The notes under the pieces are model-generated. The model did not search any database. It was not told the origin of the DNA and saw only the letters and a program-made list of their open reading frames with translations. DNA of 64,000 bases from Alphaproteobacteria bacterium (GTDB taxonomy: Bacteria; Pseudomonadota; Alphaproteobacteria; UBA8366). The position numbers were made by a program, and so were the translations under genes. The stretch covers positions 1,369,089-1,433,088 of the forward strand of contig CBDDIB010000002.1 of assembly GCA_965228695.1 (NCBI GenBank), in the 5' to 3' direction. This document shows positions 16,712 to 56,338 of the stretch, in pieces. Numbering within the stretch: the stretch's first letter is position 1; every line of letters starts with the position of its first letter.

Positions 16712-16830
16712 CGAGGTCGAGACTGATCGAGCCGCGGCAGCGGCCGGACCGGTTTCATGGTATGTTGTGAATAACGGATAAAGTATTGCATCGCCGTCAC
16801 GGGCGATGCGTCGAGAGAGGAGACCAAAGC

Positions 16831-18561
16831 ATGAATTCATTGGAAGTTTTCGATCCATCGGGCGCGACGGAGATCACGCGGTTGCACGCGACCCGGCTCG
16901 GCTCGCTGGAAGGCAAGACGGTCGCCATGCTGTCCGACGATATGTGGCAGGCGCATCGCATGATGCCGTTGCTGCGGGAAATGCTGGAAGAGCGTTTCGA
17001 CGACATCACGATCATCCCGGAAACCGAATTTCCGATGGGGAACACCGCGATCGATCGCGACGAGACCGCCGACATGTTCGTCGAACGCGGGGTCGACGCG
17101 GTCATTGTCGGAAACGCCTCCTGAGGCGCCTGCGCAACAGCATGCGGCCGTGCTGCCGCTAGAATCGAAAGCAGGGGCATCCCCACAGTACTACTCACCC
17201 GCGAGGATTTCGTCGGCGTTGTCCGCAACGCGCTCGCCGGTCTCGGATTCGATCAGGACGCGCCGATGGTGACCTTCCCGATCGACCCCTTTCTGGTCGG
17301 CAGTGATCTGACGCCGATCCGGGAGAATTTCGACGGATTTCTCGACGGACTGATGAAATGGGAAGCGCGCGCCAAGGAAACCGGTGTGCAGGACCCGCCG
17401 CGCATGCAGATCGAGGCGAACGGCTTCGAGGCGGCGCTCGATAAGATGAACCGCCAATTCCTCATGAACACATGGGGGGACGGTCTTCCCTTGACCGCGC
17501 CGACCGACGACCGCATCGACTGGATGCTCAAGGGAACCGATCTGCCGCGGGATCATGTGATCGGCAAGGTCATGCCGCGGGGCGGCATCGCGACCGTCGA
17601 GACCATTGCGGTATCGCTCGCCATGGCGGGCGGGCGGCCCGAATACCTGCCGGTCATGCTCGCGGCGGTCGAGGCGATCCTCGATCCCGGCATGGAGCAT
17701 GACAAGTTCCAGGCGACCTCGGGCAGTACTTTTCCGGTCGTCATCGTCAACGGCCCGATCGCCCAGCAAATACGCCTGAACTCGGGATTCGGGCTGCTCG
17801 GTCCGGACCCGCAGCATCCGGCCGGCGCCAGCATTGGCCGTGCATTGCGGTTGATATTGCAAAATGTGGGCGGTGCATTGCCGGGTGTCGGCACCATGGC
17901 GATGTTCGGCGGCATGCGGTACACGAACGCCGTATTCGCCGAGGATGAGGATGGCTTGCCCGAGGGTTGGTCGCCGGTCTGCACGGACCATCTCGGCCTG
18001 CCCGCGGGCAGCAATGCGGTCACTGTCTATGTGGCGACCGGCGCGTCGAACATCATGCGCCGTGGCGTCGGCAAGGAAGAACCGGACGAGGAAGCCGAGC
18101 AAAGCCTGCACCGTGTCGGTCAGTATTTGCGCAGTCCCAGCCCGCATTACACGCATGGCTGGGCGAAGGGATCGCCCGGTGCGTTGCTGATGTCGCGCGT
18201 CGTTGCGAAGCAGTTGTCCGGTCTCGGCTGGGATAAGGCCAAGATCAAGCAGTTCCTGTGGGGACGGTCCAGCACGCCGGCGGCGGAAATTCGCGAGAAC
18301 GGCATGAAGCAGTGGATCGAGGCCGCCGCCGATCCTGAAACGGTGGCGTCGTCCGAGCGGGACCCCTGGCCGATTTCCCGCACGCCGGAACAGATCATCC
18401 TCTGCGTTGCGGGCGGGCATCATCCGACGCATAATTTCTGGATGCAGGGAAACGCGCCCAAGGTCGCCGGCGGGGGAATCAAGCTGCCCGGCGGTTTTGA
18501 CGCGCTGCTTGCCGAAGCGGATGAGGATCTCGGATCGGGCGGCGAGTACTGCATGATCTAG
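16831..18561 (+). CDS. Candidate selenoprotein: UGSC-like N-terminal domain (S-U-G-A-C, UGA at 17122-17124) fused in frame to an uncharacterised ~400-aa domain
   Basis: - Track ORFs 16786..17124 and 17266..18561 share one frame.
- Codons 17125-17265 contain no stop and read GACATACGRAAARIESRGIPTVLLTREDFVGVVRNALAGLGFDQDAP.
- SD GAGGAG (16816-16821) precedes ATG 16831.
- Read-through gives 576 codons.
- If the UGA terminates instead, this is two genes (16831..17124 and 17266..18561). Confidence 0.6.
17129..17175 (+). promoter_or_regulatory. Candidate SECIS-like stem-loop downstream of UGA 17122
   Basis: Outer pairing: cctgc (17129-17133) with gcagg (17171-17175). Inner hairpin: cagca (17138-17142) with tgctg (17151-17155) and loop ugcggccg, starting 14 nt after the UGA. 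An alternative inner stem is gcggc (17144-17148) with gccgc (17155-17159). Paired by eye, not thermodynamically folded. Confidence 0.3.
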
Positions 18562-27748: not shown

Positions 27749-29572
27749 ATGGATCTGCGCAACATCGCCATCATTGCCCATGTGGATCATGGCAAGACGA
27801 CGCTGGTCGACGGACTGCTGCGCCAAAGCGGCACGTTCCGCGACAATCAGCAGGTCGCCGAGCGGGCGATGGATTCCAACGACCTGGAGCGGGAGCGCGG
27901 GATCACCATCCTGGCGAAATGCACTTCGATCCAGTGGCAAGATACGCGCATCAACATCGTCGATACGCCCGGTCACGCGGATTTCGGCGGCGAGGTCGAG
28001 CGCATTCTCAGCATGGTCGACGGCGTGGTAGTGCTCGTCGATGCGGCCGAAGGGCCGATGCCGCAGACCAAGTTCGTGCTGGGGAAGGCGCTCAAGATCG
28101 GCTTGCGGCCCATCGTGATGATCAACAAGGTGGACAAACCCGATCAGCGCGCCCACGACGTCCATAACGAAGTCTTCGATCTTTTCGCCGCGCTGGATGC
28201 GACGGATGAACAGCTCGACTTTCCCACGGTCTTCGGGTCGGGCAAGGACGGCTGGGCCGCCGACGCGCCGGAAGGCCCGGCGAAAGATCTGGAGCCGCTG
28301 TTCGATCTGATCGTGCGCCATGTCCCGGCGCCGGCGGTCGATCCGGAGGGGGCATTCCGCATGCTCGCCACGACGGTCGAATCCGACCCCTATCTTGGCC
28401 GGCTCCTGACCGGGCGGATCTATGCCGGCAGCGTGCGGCCGAACGCGACGATCAAGGCGCTGACGCGCGACGGCGATCCGCGCGAGGAAGCGCGGATCAC
28501 CAAACTGCTCGCCTTCAGGGGCTTGGAGCGGGTGCCGGTCGAGGAAGCGCACGCCGGGGATATCGTCGCGATTGCCGGCCTGTCCGACTCCACGGTTTCG
28601 GATACATTGTGCGATCCGTCGGTCGACACGCCGATTGAGGCACAGCCGATCGATCCGCCGACGCTTGCCATGTCCTTCGGCGTCAATGATTCCCCGCTGG
28701 CCGGGCAGGACGGCGACAAGCTGACGTCGCGCGTGATCCGCGCCCGGCTGTTGCGCGAAGTCGAAGGGAATGTCGCGATCACGGTGCGGGAGACGGACGA
28801 CGCGGACGCCTACGAGGTTGCGGGACGGGGAGAGCTGCAGCTCGCCGTCCTCATCGAGCAGATGCGCCGCGAAGGATTCGAACTGTCGATCGGGCGTCCT
28901 CGGGTGCTGTATCAGACCGATCCGGATACCGGCGGCCGACTCGAGCCGATCGAGGAAGTGGTCGTCGATGTGGACGAGGAATTTTCCGGCGCGGTGGTCG
29001 AAAAGTTGAGCGAGCGCAAGGCCGAGCTGACCGACATGCGGCCGGCCGGCAGCGGAAAGCAACGCCTGACCCTGCTCGCGCCGTCGCGGGGATTGATCGG
29101 GTATCACGGCGAGTTCCTCACCGATACGCGGGGCACCGGCGTGATGAACCGGGTGTTCCATGGTTATGCGCCCTACAAGGGGCCGATCGCGATGCGCCGC
29201 ACCGGCGTGCTGGTCTCGCTGGGGCAGGGCAAGGCGGTCGCCTATGCGCTCTGGAACCTGGAAGACCGCGGGCCGATGTTCGTGGACGCCGGCGCGATGG
29301 TCTACGGCGGTATGATCGTCGGCGAGAACAGCCGGGGATCCGATCTCAACGTCAATCCGCTCAAGGCCAAGCAGCTCACCAACATCCGCGCGTCCGGCAA
29401 GGACGAGGCGGTGACGCTGACGCCGCCCATTCGCATGAGTCTCGAAAAAGCGATCGCCTATATTTCGGATGACGAACTGGTGGAGGTCACGCCGCAGCAC
29501 ATCCGGTTGCGGAAACGTTTCCTCGATCCGCATGAGCGGAAGCGGGAATCAAAACGATCGGAAGTCGCCTAG
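27749..29572 (+). CDS. typA: Translational GTPase TypA/BipA
   Basis: 607 aa. [39 protein letters not shown]. Full-length colinearity with BipA, including the C-terminal domain. Confidence 0.95.
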
Positions 29573-39367: not shown

Positions 39368-40957
<1,590 letters not shown>

Positions 40958-54244: not shown

Positions 54245-54664
54245 TTAAGGCCGCCCGCCGATCCAGAACAGGTAGAGCGCGTAGAGACCTGCCAGCGCCA
54301 GCATCAGCCATGTCACCGTCTGTCCGACGATCCGCCCGAAGGACGGCCCGGTCGTGCTGTACAAGCCCTGTGCATGCAAGACCCGGGCGACGAAGAGGCC
54401 CGCGCCCAGCACATGCACCGCGGCTACCGGCGCCCCCAGCATCTCGACGATGAGCAGGAGCACCAGACTCAATGCCACGTATTCGGCATTGTTCGCGTGC
54501 ACCCGAATCGTCTGCAGCAGCGCTGCATTATTACCGTCGCCGATGTCTATGCGTTCCTTCGCGCGATGCAGGCTGACGCGCATTGCGAGTAAAACGGCGA
54601 GCAGGCCGTTCAGGCCCGCATAAAGCGCGGTGATGACCGGCAATGTGATTTGCACGGATTGCAT
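54245..54664 (-). CDS. MAPEG family membrane protein
   Basis: 139 aa with four predicted helices. RVHANNAEYVALSLVLLLIVE is typical of MAPEG. Confidence 0.8.
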   Translation of the reverse strand: MQSVQITLPVITALYAGLNGLLAVLLAMRVSLHRAKERIDIGDGNNAALLQTIRVHANNAEYVALSLVLLLIVEMLGAPVAAVHVLGAGLFVARVLHAQGLYSTTGPSFGRIVGQTVTWLMLALAGLYALYLFWIGGRP

Positions 54665-54858
54665 TGAAATTCCCCCGATTGAACCGACAGTCCCGGAGCA
54701 AGTCTACGCCGCCGCCGTGCGGTCGGTCTTCACCCTTGCGTGAGGGACGCGGTGAACGGCGGAATCCAGAGCGCCGCACCGACATCAATCCGTCTTTGGC
54801 GTTTGAGGTGGATTTCATCGGCATGATACCGTTGAGGTCAACCGAAAGGAGGGGATCG

Positions 54859-55299
54859 ATGACGGAAGTGCCAAAATCAACCGGGCCCGCACCGGGGTTT
54901 GCCGCGTCGCCCGGCTATCGTGTCGACATGGAGCCGTGTCCGAAGCGCATTCGCGTGAAGGTCGGCGATGAGGTTATCGCGGATTCCACCGGCGCGTTGC
55001 TCATGCTCGAGACCAATCACAAGGATCTCTATTACTTTCCGCGCGCCGATATTCGCATGGACTTGATGGCGCGCAGCGACAGTACGTCCTTCTGACCCTA
55101 CAAGGGCCATGCGGCCTACTACTCCGTGCGGGTAGGTGATCGAATCGAAGAAGACATCGCGTGGTCGTACGAGACCCCGTATGACGAAGGCGAATCCTAC
55201 GCCGGCTATATCGCGTTCTACTGGGATAGGGTAGACAAATGGCTCGCGGACGAGGACGAAATCGCCGAGCAACCGTATAGCGCCGGCGAGAGGAAATGA
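54859..55299 (+). CDS. DUF427 protein with in-frame UGA (55093-55095) at the conserved Cys position: candidate selenoprotein, or a TGC>TGA pseudogene
   Basis: AGGAGGGG RBS precedes ATG 54859. The sequence reads ...YYFPRADIRMDLMARSDSTSF-[TGA]-PYKGHAAYYSVRVGDRIEEDIAWSYETPYDEGESYAGYIAFYWDRVDKWLADEDE... to TGA 55297-55299. That is 146 codons in one frame, and the downstream half has no start codon of its own. Confidence 0.55.
55119..55135 (+). promoter_or_regulatory. Candidate SECIS-like hairpin downstream of UGA 55093
   Basis: ctactc (55119-55124) pairs with gggtag (55130-55135), including one G-U pair, around loop cgugc. An alternative register pairs cctac (55115-55119) with gtagg (55132-55136). 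It starts about 20-24 nt after the UGA. Paired by eye only. Confidence 0.25.
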
Positions 55300-55312: not shown

Positions 55313-56338
55313 TTGCGGGGAAAGCGAGAGGAACCCGTGACAAAGATATTCCGGCGGCAGATCGGCGATGCGACCGCGTGGAAAAGCACCGAGATGAAAG
55401 CGCGCGACGATTGGCTCCACGTCCTGACGGAAGCCGAGGTCGGGGATCTCGACCGAGCCCTGCGCGCGGTGCAGCAGAGCGGTTTGGAAATGGCCGCGGT
55501 CACGAAAAATGATTTCCCCTTGCCGGTGTTGGAGCCCTATCTCGCCGATTTGGAGAAGACCGTGCGCACCGGCCGCGGGTTTGCACTGCTGCGCGGCATT
55601 CCGGTCGACCGATATACCGCGGAAGAGGTCTTCCTCATTAAATGGGGCATCGGCACGCATCTGGGCGAGAAGGTATCCCAGAACGCCTACGGCGACCTGC
55701 TCGGTCATGTCTACGATCATGGGCGCGATCCGAAATCCACGCGAACCCGGGGCTACCAGACCCGTGGCGAGCTGCGGTTTCATGTCGATCGCGCCGACAT
55801 GACATCGCTTCTCTGTCTGCGCACGGGCCGGAAAGGCGGATTGAGCCGCATCGTCAGTTCCATGTCCGTTCACAACGAGATACTTGCCCGGCACCCCGAA
55901 TATCTGCCGCCGCTCTATGAAGGGGTGCCCTATATCCATATCGAGGAAGCGGGCGAGATGCGAAGCTGGAAGGAGCCGGTCTTCAGCGTCACCGACGATG
56001 TTCTGAGCTGTTCCATCCGCCGCAACACGGTGCAAAAGGCGATCGAGCGGTCGGGTATAGAGATGACGCCGCTGGAGACGGCAGCCCTCGAATTTTTCGA
56101 TTCGGTGGCGGAAGATCCCGAATTCGTCCTCGAGATGGAACTCGAGCCCGGCGACATTCAGTTCGTCAACAACTACACCATCCTGCACGGCCGGACGGCC
56201 TTCGTCGACGATGCGGCGCGGGAAATGAAGCGCCATCTCGTGCGCCTCTGGCTGCGGTTCTTCTCCCCCCGTCCGACCGCCGCGTTTATCCGCGAACAGT
56301 ACAACGGAATCGAGAAGATGCTGGAGCGCGAGACTTAG
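55313..56338 (+). CDS. TauD/TfdA family Fe(II)/2-oxoglutarate dioxygenase
   Basis: 341 aa, with start TTG 55313 or GTG 55337. ELRFHVDRADMTSLLCLR carries HxD. C-terminal NNYTILHGRTAF. It begins 14 nt after the DUF427 stop. Confidence 0.8.
   Translation: MRGKREEPVTKIFRRQIGDATAWKSTEMKARDDWLHVLTEAEVGDLDRALRAVQQSGLEMAAVTKNDFPLPVLEPYLADLEKTVRTGRGFALLRGIPVDRYTAEEVFLIKWGIGTHLGEKVSQNAYGDLLGHVYDHGRDPKSTRTRGYQTRGELRFHVDRADMTSLLCLRTGRKGGLSRIVSSMSVHNEILARHPEYLPPLYEGVPYIHIEEAGEMRSWKEPVFSVTDDVLSCSIRRNTVQKAIERSGIEMTPLETAALEFFDSVAEDPEFVLEMELEPGDIQFVNNYTILHGRTAFVDDAAREMKRHLVRLWLRFFSPRPTAAFIREQYNGIEKMLERET

What the first reader, a model, noticed from the sequence alone, without database searches (positions are those of the whole stretch)
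54859..55299. DUF427 gene with UGA exactly at its conserved Cys: a second selenocysteine candidate (or a one-base pseudogene)
What the sequence shows:
- The track ORF stops at TGA 55093-55095 after ...LYYFPRADIRMDLMARSDSTSF.
- The same frame then stays open for 67 more codons: PYKGHAAYYSVRVGDRIEEDIAWSYETPYDEGESYAGYIAFYWDRVDKWLADEDE..., ending at TGA 55297-55299.
- The downstream part has no start codon or RBS of its own.
- A hairpin can be drawn 24 nt downstream (55119-55135).

What I recall (from memory): DUF427 (PF04248) proteins carry a C-P-Y-K-G-x-A-x-Y-[YW]-S motif in the middle of the single domain. The TGA replaces exactly that Cys. Sec/Cys pairing at a conserved Cys column is the classic signature used to discover selenoproteins.

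A second such event in the same 64 kb as the 17122 UGA raises the prior that this organism decodes Sec. I am not aware of DUF427 being an established selenoprotein family, though my memory is not authoritative on this.

The alternative is a TGC>TGA nonsense mutation, which needs only a single transversion.
Basis: partly seen in the sequence, partly recalled or inferred. Interest (0 to 1): 0.8.

Follow-up and report, generated by a model that had tools for sequence, protein, structure and literature searches.

The report
DUF427 gene encoding selenocysteine
A small gene of unknown function appears to be cut in half by a stop codon, but it is almost certainly read through to insert selenocysteine. 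The same arrangement recurs in dozens of unrelated environmental bacteria, so DUF427 looks like an uncatalogued selenoprotein family, and the site marks its one conserved cysteine as the working residue.

Summary
Window 54859-55299 is one DUF427 (PF04248) gene interrupted by TGA at 55093-55095. The TGA sits on the family's near-invariant Cys (C-P-x-K-G-x-A-x-Y).

It is not a one-base pseudogene:
- The TGA is kept in every close relative found.
- A DNA pattern scan retrieved 49 metagenome contigs with TGA at that column. In 48 of them the domain continues intact.
- Those contigs fall into at least five very divergent clades, including two-domain proteins with Sec in domain 1 and Cys in domain 2.
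- Downstream of the TGA, dN/dS is 0.05-0.19, the same as upstream.

- It pairs in all 120 cells of 20 sequences.
- It shows C-G to U-A compensation.
- It overlaps a block of six codons whose synonymous sites are frozen.
- Weakness: it is energetically weak on its own.

The same window holds a UGSC-family selenoprotein gene (TGA 17122), so the organism very probably decodes Sec. The Sec machinery itself could not be checked.

DUF427 is absent from the 119-family catalogue of 2026 and from NCBIfam. Verdict: a real selenoprotein gene from a new selenoprotein family. Its biochemical function is still unknown.

The parts
54848..54852 (+). Shine-Dalgarno-like GGAGG, 6 nt before the ATG
   Evidence: read directly from the sequence
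54859..55299 (+). Complete DUF427 selenoprotein gene: 146 residues (78 + Sec + 67) plus the terminal TGA
   Evidence: Translation. Pfam PF04248 profile 1-93 spans the TGA. Orthologues L003, L001 and L022 have the same layout.
55093..55095 (+). In-frame UGA read as selenocysteine, on the Cys column of C-P-x-K-G-x-A-x-Y
   Evidence: Cys in 83 of 84 motif instances in database homologues. TGA conserved in all clade-A relatives and in 49 metagenome loci.
55104..55117 (+). First small hairpin after the UGA (GGGCC-AUGC-GGCCU). It may stack on, or act as a lower element of, the SECIS. Less certain.
   Evidence: MFE fold. It is -8.5 kcal/mol alone and -14.7 together with hairpin 2. 93% of cells paired, but the register is ambiguous. 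Its loop and spacing do not fit the bSECIS model.
55111..55128 (+). Block of six codons (GCG GCC/TCC TAC TAC TCC GTG) with no synonymous variation in 15 of 15 clade-A genes
   Evidence: Synonymous-site profile. The rest of the gene shows 0.3-0.6 synonymous difference, and dS reaches 0.5-1.4.
55119..55135 (+). Candidate bacterial SECIS hairpin: 6-bp stem (55119-55124 with 55130-55135) and loop CGUGC (55125-55129). GU is at loop positions 2-3, and 29 nt lie between the UGA and the loop.
   Evidence: 100% of 120 cells paired in 20 sequences. C-G to U-A change in 4 sequences, U.G in 2. RNAalifold predicts it independently. Model criteria are from PMC13188914. Energy is only -4.6 to -6.2 kcal/mol alone.
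55297..55299 (+). True stop codon of the gene (also TGA, not recoded)
   Evidence: Translation. No hairpin context. TGA ends 12 of 33 long ORFs in the window.
55337..56338 (+). TauD/TfdA-family dioxygenase gene, 38 nt downstream on the same strand. It is a likely operon partner in the closest relatives only.
   Evidence: Gene call and Pfam on L002. The same neighbour is seen in L022 by Pfam. L003 has a same-sized 333-aa ORF on the same strand in that position, which was not scanned.

Best explanation
Window 54859-55299 is a single functional gene for a 146-residue DUF427 protein.

Proposed mechanism (steps 1-3 inferred by analogy with the E. coli system; nothing here was measured):
1. The UGA at 55093-55095 is decoded as selenocysteine.
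2. A small stem-loop about 24 nt downstream (55119-55135, loop C-G-U-G-C) acts as the bacterial SECIS. The preceding hairpin at 55104-55117 may assist it.
3. SelB-GTP-Sec-tRNA(Sec) binds the SECIS and delivers Sec to the ribosome in competition with release factor 2.

Position of the Sec (shown on a model of a Cys homologue): it replaces the family's one near-invariant cysteine. That residue sits at the end of a beta-strand, just before the tight P-x-K-G turn of the zinc-less beta-tent fold.

Function (inferred): a Sec/Cys pair at a conserved column is the standard signature of a catalytic redox or nucleophilic residue. This residue is therefore most likely the active-site nucleophile or redox centre of an enzyme whose substrate is unknown.

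Scope: this is not peculiar to this genome. Sec forms of DUF427 occur in many divergent lineages, mostly marine, and appear to have switched with Cys forms several times.
For: 1. Pfam PF04248 spans the TGA.
2. The column is Cys in 83 of 84 motif instances and at least 90% conserved.
3. The TGA is kept in independent relatives. L003 is an Alphaproteobacteria MAG at 90% aa identity, L001 is at 82%, and L022, L016 and others follow.
4. A pattern requiring Y-[FL]-P-x17-TGA-P-[YFW]-K-G-x-A-x-Y found 49 metagenome loci.
   - All 49 are DUF427 genes.
   - 48 have the domain intact after the TGA.
   - They span at least five clades.
5. dN/dS downstream of the TGA is 0.05-0.19, against 0.04-0.31 upstream, in 14 pairwise comparisons with dS up to 1.4.
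6. Hairpin 55119-55135:
   - all 120 cells paired, with compensatory C-G to U-A changes;
   - found independently by RNAalifold;
   - loop, stem and spacing fit the published bSECIS model;
   - six consecutive codons with frozen synonymous sites overlap it.
7. In the two-domain clade:
   - the Sec domain always encodes A-R-Y-W-S as GCC AGG TAC TGG TCT, which forms a 7-8 bp hairpin with a GUA loop 20 nt from the UGA;
   - the Cys domain of the same proteins encodes the same residues as GCG CGC TAY TGG AGC, with no hairpin.
8. The same window holds a Pfam UGSC-family gene.
   - Its TGA is on the U/C of the UGSC motif.
   - Cys homologues read GNAACG[AG]C.
   - The TGA is retained in a relative genome.
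   - Its downstream hairpin loop also begins CGUGC.
9. TGA is otherwise an ordinary stop here.
10. Six of the 150 best cluster representatives end exactly one residue before the Cys column. This is the footprint of gene callers stopping at a Sec codon.
Against: - No selA, selB, selD or tRNA-Sec was found in the 64-kb window or in any fetched locus. The rest of the genome could not be searched.
- No Rfam hit.
- Hairpin 55119-55135 is weak: -4.6 kcal/mol alone and -6.2 in context. It reaches the model's -7.5 threshold only together with the neighbouring hairpin.
- Given the amino-acid sequence, a compliant hairpin at least this good arises in 7% of synonymous recodings for the window, and in 6-34% across its clade.
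- The total folding energy of the region is no better than shuffles or recodings.
- The covariation rests on one or two evolutionary events between two clades.
- Selenium incorporation has not been shown for any DUF427 protein.
Confidence: 0.88

Rival explanations
1. One-base pseudogene. A TGC-to-TGA nonsense mutation inactivated the gene, and the downstream frame is still open only because the event is recent.
For: A Cys codon needs a single transversion to become TGA. The sel genes were not seen. One of the 49 metagenome loci (L009, a 2.2x-coverage contig) carries a further TAA eight codons later.
Against: The TGA is shared by relatives whose synonymous divergence is 0.5-1.4. The downstream omega is 0.05-0.19. 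48 of 49 metagenome loci in several deep clades keep an intact downstream domain. Synonymous sites just after the TGA are frozen rather than relaxed.
Confidence: 0.02
2. UGA read-through or recoding without selenium. The codon would be read as Trp, Cys or Gly, either by near-cognate suppression or through a reassigned code. The hairpin would then act only as a read-through stimulator.
For: The Sec machinery is not demonstrated for this genome. The hairpin is weak by bSECIS energy criteria.
Against: TGA ends 12 of 33 long ORFs in the window, including this gene itself, so the code is standard. The recoded column is specifically the conserved Cys in every clade. The loop has the G-U that the bSECIS model expects. 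A gene of the established UGSC selenoprotein family, with TGA on its U/C position, lies in the same window.
Confidence: 0.06
3. Split gene. Two separate polypeptides are made (78 aa, and 57 aa from GTG 55126) and assemble into one domain, as the gene calls on the ENA contig L002 imply.
For: The gene call on the ENA contig L002 (identical over this gene) lists both ORFs. An in-frame GTG exists at 55126.
Against: There is no Shine-Dalgarno sequence before 55126. The ten codons between the TGA and the GTG encode the invariant P-x-K-G-x-A-x-Y core (K82 and G83 are invariant) and are under strong purifying selection. Other clades have no start codon at that place.
Confidence: 0.02
4. A sequencing or assembly error created the TGA.
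For: None specific.
Against: The codon is identical in an independent ENA assembly (L002), in a different MAG (L003), in a JGI contig (L001) and in 49 further contigs from many projects.
Confidence: 0.005

Closest known systems
Bacterial selenoprotein genes with an intragenic SECIS (E. coli fdhF type; consensus bSECIS model of Zhang and Gladyshev, summarised in PMC13188914)
   Same: - In-frame UGA on a Cys column.
- Stem-loop immediately downstream, inside the coding region.
- Small apical loop with G then U in its first positions.
- 16-37 nt between the UGA and the loop.
- Sec and Cys forms are interspersed in the family tree.
   Different: - The protein family (DUF427, beta-tent fold) is not among the 119 catalogued families.
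- The hairpin in this clade has 6 bp and about -5 kcal/mol, weaker than the model's -7.5 threshold.
- The loop lies 29 nt from the UGA. By my recollection it is about 19-20 nt in fdhF.
DUF427 / PF04248 (crystal structure 3DJM, Rhodobacter sphaeroides; beta-tent fold, PMC4287342)
   Same: - Full-length Pfam match.
- The same invariant residues (Y59, K82, G83, W102, Y104, A119, F120).
- A model of a 50%-identical homologue superposes on 3DJM at 1.2 A rmsd.
   Different: All described members have Cys at the column, and this one has UGA. No function is known for any member.
MsrB1 / selenoprotein R (eukaryotic methionine-R-sulfoxide reductase)
   Same: It has the same fold class (beta-tent / Mss4-like, per PMC4287342). 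It exists in Sec and Cys forms, with the Sec as the catalytic residue (the second point is from my own knowledge).
   Different: - No significant sequence similarity.
- MsrB binds zinc, and DUF427 lacks the zinc site (PMC4287342).
- Whether the Sec positions are structurally equivalent was not tested.
- Eukaryotic Sec insertion uses a SECIS in the 3' UTR.
UGSC family (seleno)proteins (PF24696 / NF041046)
   Same: It is the other TGA-containing gene of this window. The Sec/Cys pairing logic is the same, and the downstream hairpin loop is similar (CGUGCU against CGUGC).
   Different: The fold and motif are unrelated (U-G-x-C). It is already an established selenoprotein family.

Membership tests
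DUF427 (Pfam PF04248) | Match to the Pfam model above the gathering score, over the whole domain | tested here: met
   111.9 bits against a cut-off of 22.1, profile 1-93 of 93, with Cys substituted for the TGA. Each half alone scores 44 and 47 bits.
DUF427 (Pfam PF04248) | Conserved core motif C-P-x-K-G-x-A-x-Y and W-S-Y-E | tested here: met
   The window has U-P-Y-K-G-H-A-A-Y and A-W-S-Y-E. K82, G83, W102 and Y104 are invariant in a 53-sequence alignment.
DUF427 (Pfam PF04248) | Beta-tent fold as in 3DJM | tested here: met
pLDDT 92. Foldseek to 3DJM gives E 6e-11, rmsd 1.2 A. The next hits are yippee domains.
Bacterial selenoprotein gene (UGA recoded to Sec) | In-frame UGA aligned with a conserved Cys of homologues (Sec/Cys pair) | tested here: met
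Bacterial selenoprotein gene (UGA recoded to Sec) | UGA conserved in orthologues, and coding sequence under purifying selection downstream of it | tested here: met
   TGA in L001, L003, L022 and 49 metagenome loci. Downstream omega is 0.05-0.19.
Bacterial selenoprotein gene (UGA recoded to Sec) | bSECIS geometry: apical loop 3-9 nt, upper stem 4-16 bp, G in the first two loop positions followed by G or U, 16-37 nt from the UGA | tested here: met
   Loop CGUGC (5 nt), 6-bp stem, 29 nt spacing. 42 of 44 unique Sec-form sequences have a compliant hairpin, against 1 of 11 Cys-domain controls.
Bacterial selenoprotein gene (UGA recoded to Sec) | bSECIS stability: MFE of -7.5 kcal/mol or lower | tested here: inconclusive
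   The hairpin alone is -4.6, and -6.2 in context. With the adjacent hairpin it is -14.7. The clade-C hairpins reach -7.7 to -10.6.
Bacterial selenoprotein gene (UGA recoded to Sec) | Evolutionary support for the RNA structure (covariation, constrained synonymous sites) | tested here: met
   100% pairing, with one pair changed on both sides in 4 sequences. Six codons have zero synonymous variation. Caveat: few independent events.
Bacterial selenoprotein gene (UGA recoded to Sec) | Genome encodes selA, selB, selC (tRNA-Sec) and selD | not testable with these tools
   - None in the window or loci.
- Look-ups from the window ends found nothing on record.
- Indirect support comes from the UGSC selenoprotein gene in the same window.
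Bacterial selenoprotein gene (UGA recoded to Sec) | Selenium actually incorporated in the protein | not testable with these tools
   Needs 75Se labelling or mass spectrometry.
Any already catalogued prokaryotic selenoprotein family | Listed in the 119-family catalogue, or matched by an NCBIfam (seleno)protein model | tested here: not met
   - PF04248/DUF427 is absent from Table 1 of PMC13188914.
- No NCBIfam hit at E below 0.01.
- No DUF427 hit in the held supplements of the GOS and deep-Sep papers.
- None of the 9 papers in the library that mention DUF427 concerns selenoproteins.

The most novel reading that the evidence does not exclude
DUF427 is a widespread selenoprotein family that has not been recognised so far. 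The Sec/Cys residue at the P-x-K-G turn would be the catalytic redox nucleophile of a zinc-less beta-tent enzyme. That would make it a bacterial counterpart of the MsrB1 situation, and it would turn a domain of unknown function with a solved structure (3DJM) into a testable thiol/selenol oxidoreductase.
Probability: 0.4. Interest if true: 0.75.

Novelty: new member of a known kind. Interest (0 to 1): 0.65.

Why it matters
1. It adds a protein family and a fold class to the prokaryotic selenoproteome, which the latest catalogue puts at 119 families without this one.
2. It gives the first functional clue for DUF427. The family has more than a thousand 50%-identity clusters, occurs in bacteria and fungi, and has had a crystal structure but no known function since 2008. 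Sec/Cys pairing points to the single conserved cysteine as the catalytic residue.
3. It exposes a systematic annotation error. Gene callers split or truncate these genes, for example into 78-aa and 57-aa ORFs, and representatives that end exactly before the Sec column are present in public protein collections.
4. The two-domain proteins, with Sec in domain 1 and Cys in domain 2, are a natural internal control for studying how a SECIS is written into codon choice.

Tried and rejected
- Rfam scan of the window: no hit.
- tRNA scan of the window and 26 loci: no tRNA-Sec.
Only TypA (27749-29572) and PrfC (39368-40957) matched the SelB GTPase domain.
- Whole-region folding energy. It was compared with dinucleotide shuffles (z = +0.4) and with synonymous recodings (clade A mean z = +0.15). 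There was no signal, so total MFE is not a useful statistic here. The evidence for the RNA element comes from the specific hairpin, the covariation and the frozen synonymous sites.
- Hairpin 1 (55104-55117) as the SelB-binding element. [quoted passage not shown]
- Gene neighbourhood as a clue to function. The neighbours differ between clades (TauD, TerB plus Pyridox_oxase_2, ECH, Pirin, OpuAC, aminotransferase, EamA, PrpD), so no conserved partner emerged.
- Extending the window by looking up its terminal proteins: not on record.
- The literature gave no link between DUF427 and selenium.

Full report
**1. The observation**

The sequence is as described.
- ATG 54859 is preceded by GGAGG.
- The frame reads ...LMARSDSTSF, meets TGA at 55093-55095, and stays open for 67 more codons to TGA 55297-55299.
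- With Cys written for the TGA, Pfam PF04248 (DUF427) matches over its whole length (profile 1-93, 111.9 bits). The N-terminal part alone covers profile 1-47 and the C-terminal part covers 50-93. The stop therefore falls inside one domain.
The gene call on the ENA contig L002, which is identical over this gene, lists a 57-aa ORF from that position. It has no ribosome-binding site.

**2. The column**

- In 88 database homologues, the residue before P-[YFW]-K-G-x-A-x-Y is Cys in 83 of 84 motif instances. Most of the homologues without a strict motif match still have Cys there.
- In a 53-sequence alignment the Cys is at least 90% conserved. It lies next to the invariant K82 and G83.
- The only solved structure, 3DJM, has the Cys too.

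**3. Is the TGA an accident of this strain?** No.

- The closest full-length Cys homologue is only 50% identical. Everything closer carries TGA:
  - a JGI contig at 82% aa identity, whose annotated protein stops at ...NTSF (L001);
  - an Alphaproteobacteria MAG chromosome at 90% (L003).
- I then wrote a DNA pattern for Y-[FL]-P, 17 codons, TGA, P-[YFW]-K-G-x-A-x-Y.
  - By my count it carries about 43 bits.
  - It gave 0 matches in 100 shuffles of the window.
  - It hit only the three known loci.
- I spent the single metagenome scan on this pattern. It returned 49 contigs.
  - All 49 are DUF427 genes.
  - In 48 the domain continues in frame past the TGA to a normal end.
  - The exception, L009, is a 2.2x-coverage contig with an extra TAA on a Tyr codon.
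- The hits fall into very different groups:
  - window-like single-domain proteins (SFUPYKGHA);
  - an AT-rich marine group (SFUPFKGVAS);
  - a large group of roughly 255-residue two-domain proteins, with U in domain 1 (STUPWKGEARYW) and Cys in domain 2 (TMCPYKGPARYW);
  - further two-domain and short forms.
- On a rough NJ tree of 49 Sec and 103 Cys domains, the Sec forms make at least seven separate blocks.
- A phmmer search with the 78-residue fragment against 1.84 billion cluster representatives found 1249 relatives. Among the best 150, six representatives of 77-83 residues end exactly one residue before the Cys column. This is what gene callers produce at a Sec codon.

**4. Is the downstream part translated?** Yes.

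- Nei-Gojobori estimates were made between the window and 14 clade-A relatives. They give omega 0.05-0.19 downstream of the TGA and 0.04-0.31 upstream, with dS from 0.5 to beyond 1.
- This excludes a pseudogene.
- It also excludes a restart at GTG 55126, because the ten intervening codons hold the invariant core of the domain.

**5. The RNA element**

Negative results:
- Global folding energy is uninformative, with z = +0.4 against shuffles.
- It is no better than synonymous recodings in the window's clade.

It runs from nt 27 to 43 counted from the U of UGA, which is 55119-55135: CUACUC-CGUGC-GGGUAG.
- On 20 distinct sequences of the two related clades, all 120 cells pair.
- The closing pair changes from C-G to U-A in four sequences, and through U.G in two. 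Two other pairs change only between U-A and U.G.
- RNAalifold predicts the same helix on its own.
- A codon-by-codon profile shows that codons +6 to +11 (55111-55128) are identical in 15 of 15 clade-A genes. The rest of the gene has 30-60% synonymous differences between pairs.
- The next two codons vary only between CGG/CGA and GTA/GTG, which are the alternatives that keep the pairs.
- In the AT-rich clade the stems are fixed, while the loop third positions vary freely around an invariant G-U.

The clearest case is the two-domain clade.
- Codons +5 to +10 are GAG GCC AGG TAC TGG TCT in 15 of 16 sequences (the other has TCC for the last codon). They form a 7-8 bp hairpin with loop GUA, 20 nt from the UGA.
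- The Cys domain of the very same proteins encodes the same A-R-Y-W-S as GCG CGC TAY TGG AGC, which cannot fold that way.

A strict implementation of the published bSECIS model was then applied. The model asks for a loop of 3-9 nt, a stem of at least 4 bp, G in the first two loop positions followed by G or U, and spacing of 16-37 nt.
- It finds a compliant hairpin in 42 of 44 unique Sec forms, against 1 of 11 Cys-domain controls.

Weak point for this window:
- Its hairpin is only -4.6 kcal/mol alone, -6.2 in context, and -14.7 together with the preceding hairpin 55104-55117.
- 7% of synonymous recodings do as well.

I rate 'this hairpin is the SECIS' at about 0.65. 'The UGA is recoded' rates much higher.

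**6. Does the organism decode Sec?**

- TGA is a normal stop here, ending 12 of 33 long ORFs and this gene itself. A reassigned code is therefore excluded.
The gene at about 16828-18561 has TGA at 17122 inside GNAS-U-GAC.
  - Its N-terminal domain is Pfam UGSC (73 bits, cut-off 25).
  - Full-length homologues read GNAA-C-G[AG]C.
  - Most of its closest relatives in the database are annotated as 431-457-residue proteins that start just after that position.
  - A relative genome, GCA_028281325.1, keeps the TGA.
- UGSC is an established selenoprotein family.
- Its downstream hairpin, GCGGC-CGUGCU-GCCGC, has a loop that begins with the same CGUGC as the DUF427 hairpin.

Two selenoprotein genes in 64 kb make Sec decoding very likely.

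**7. What the protein is**

- An AlphaFold model of the Cys homologue P0009 (pLDDT 92) places the Cys at the end of strand 70-79, just before the P-F-K-G turn.
- Foldseek finds 3DJM, then yippee/Mis18 domains. This is the beta-tent fold, in which DUF427 is described as lacking the zinc site (PMC4287342).
- No characterised enzyme was found.
- Neighbours are not conserved between clades.
- Function therefore remains unknown. The Sec/Cys pair argues for a catalytic redox or nucleophilic role of this residue (inference from the general rule for selenoproteins).

**8. Novelty**

- The review of May 2026 lists 119 prokaryotic selenoprotein families. DUF427/PF04248 is not among them.
- The GOS study's new families do not include it.
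- NCBIfam has no model that hits it.
- The held supplements of the GOS and deep-Sep papers do not mention it.
- None of the nine papers in the library that mention DUF427 concerns selenium.
- The mechanism is the known one, and the family is new to it.

**Verdict:** a real feature, a new member of a known kind. Confidence is 0.88 that the UGA encodes Sec.

Noticed in passing
window 16828-18561 (+), TGA at 17122-17124; hairpin 17144-17159: - This is a second selenoprotein gene: a UGSC-family domain (Pfam PF24696, 73 bits) fused to a C-terminal domain of about 430 residues with no Pfam hit.
- Its motif is GNAS-U-GAC, and the Cys homologues have GNAACG[AG]C.
- Most close database relatives are annotated as truncated proteins that start after the TGA.
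- The NCBIfam UGSC model scores only 43 bits against a cut-off of 125, so the fusion form may be a distinct subfamily.
   Followed up: yes
window 55125-55129 and 17149-17154: The apical loops of the two candidate SECIS hairpins in this window share the sequence C-G-U-G-C. This would fit recognition by one SelB, but it could be chance.
   Followed up: partly
L019, L021, L023, L028, L030, L034, L037, L040, L044, L053 (two-domain DUF427 genes): These are tandem DUF427 proteins with Sec in domain 1 and Cys in domain 2. The same A-R-Y-W-S peptide is encoded with hairpin-forming rare codons (AGG, TCT) only in the Sec domain.
   Followed up: yes
L049: 3863 (TGA) to about 4903: Here a Sec-form DUF427 is fused in frame to a C-terminal domain of roughly 280 residues. 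By eye that domain resembles the isocitrate lyase / PEP mutase family, but this was not tested. An MmgE/PrpD gene follows.
   Followed up: partly
L009: 2097 (TGA) and 8 codons downstream: This is the only one of the 49 Sec-form loci with a further in-frame stop (TAA on a conserved Tyr codon). The contig has 2.2x coverage, so it may be a read error or a real pseudogene.
   Followed up: partly
L011, Cys domain 2, nt 18-43 after the TGC: This Cys-form domain has a very stable hairpin (11 bp, -18.5 kcal/mol, loop GGAA) in the place where Sec forms carry their SECIS. It is unexplained.
   Followed up: no
L002: 8364-8600 and 8631-8804; P0018; P0209, P0215, P0275, P0321, P0332, P0334: Public gene calls split or truncate the Sec-form DUF427 genes, for example into 78-aa and 57-aa ORFs. 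Cluster representatives that end exactly before the Sec column exist in the protein collections.
   Followed up: yes
L010, L031, L056 (AT-rich marine clade): In this clade the DUF427 gene sits between a TerB (tellurite-resistance) family gene and a pyridoxamine-phosphate-oxidase-like gene, all on the same strand. Pfam was run on the L031 neighbours only. L010 and L056 have same-sized, same-strand ORFs in the same positions. A chalcogen-related context is possible, but it was not pursued.
   Followed up: partly
window 54245-54664 (-): A MAPEG-family (glutathione-metabolism membrane protein) gene lies divergently upstream of the DUF427 gene. The same is seen in L001 and L002, but only in the closest relatives.
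   Followed up: no
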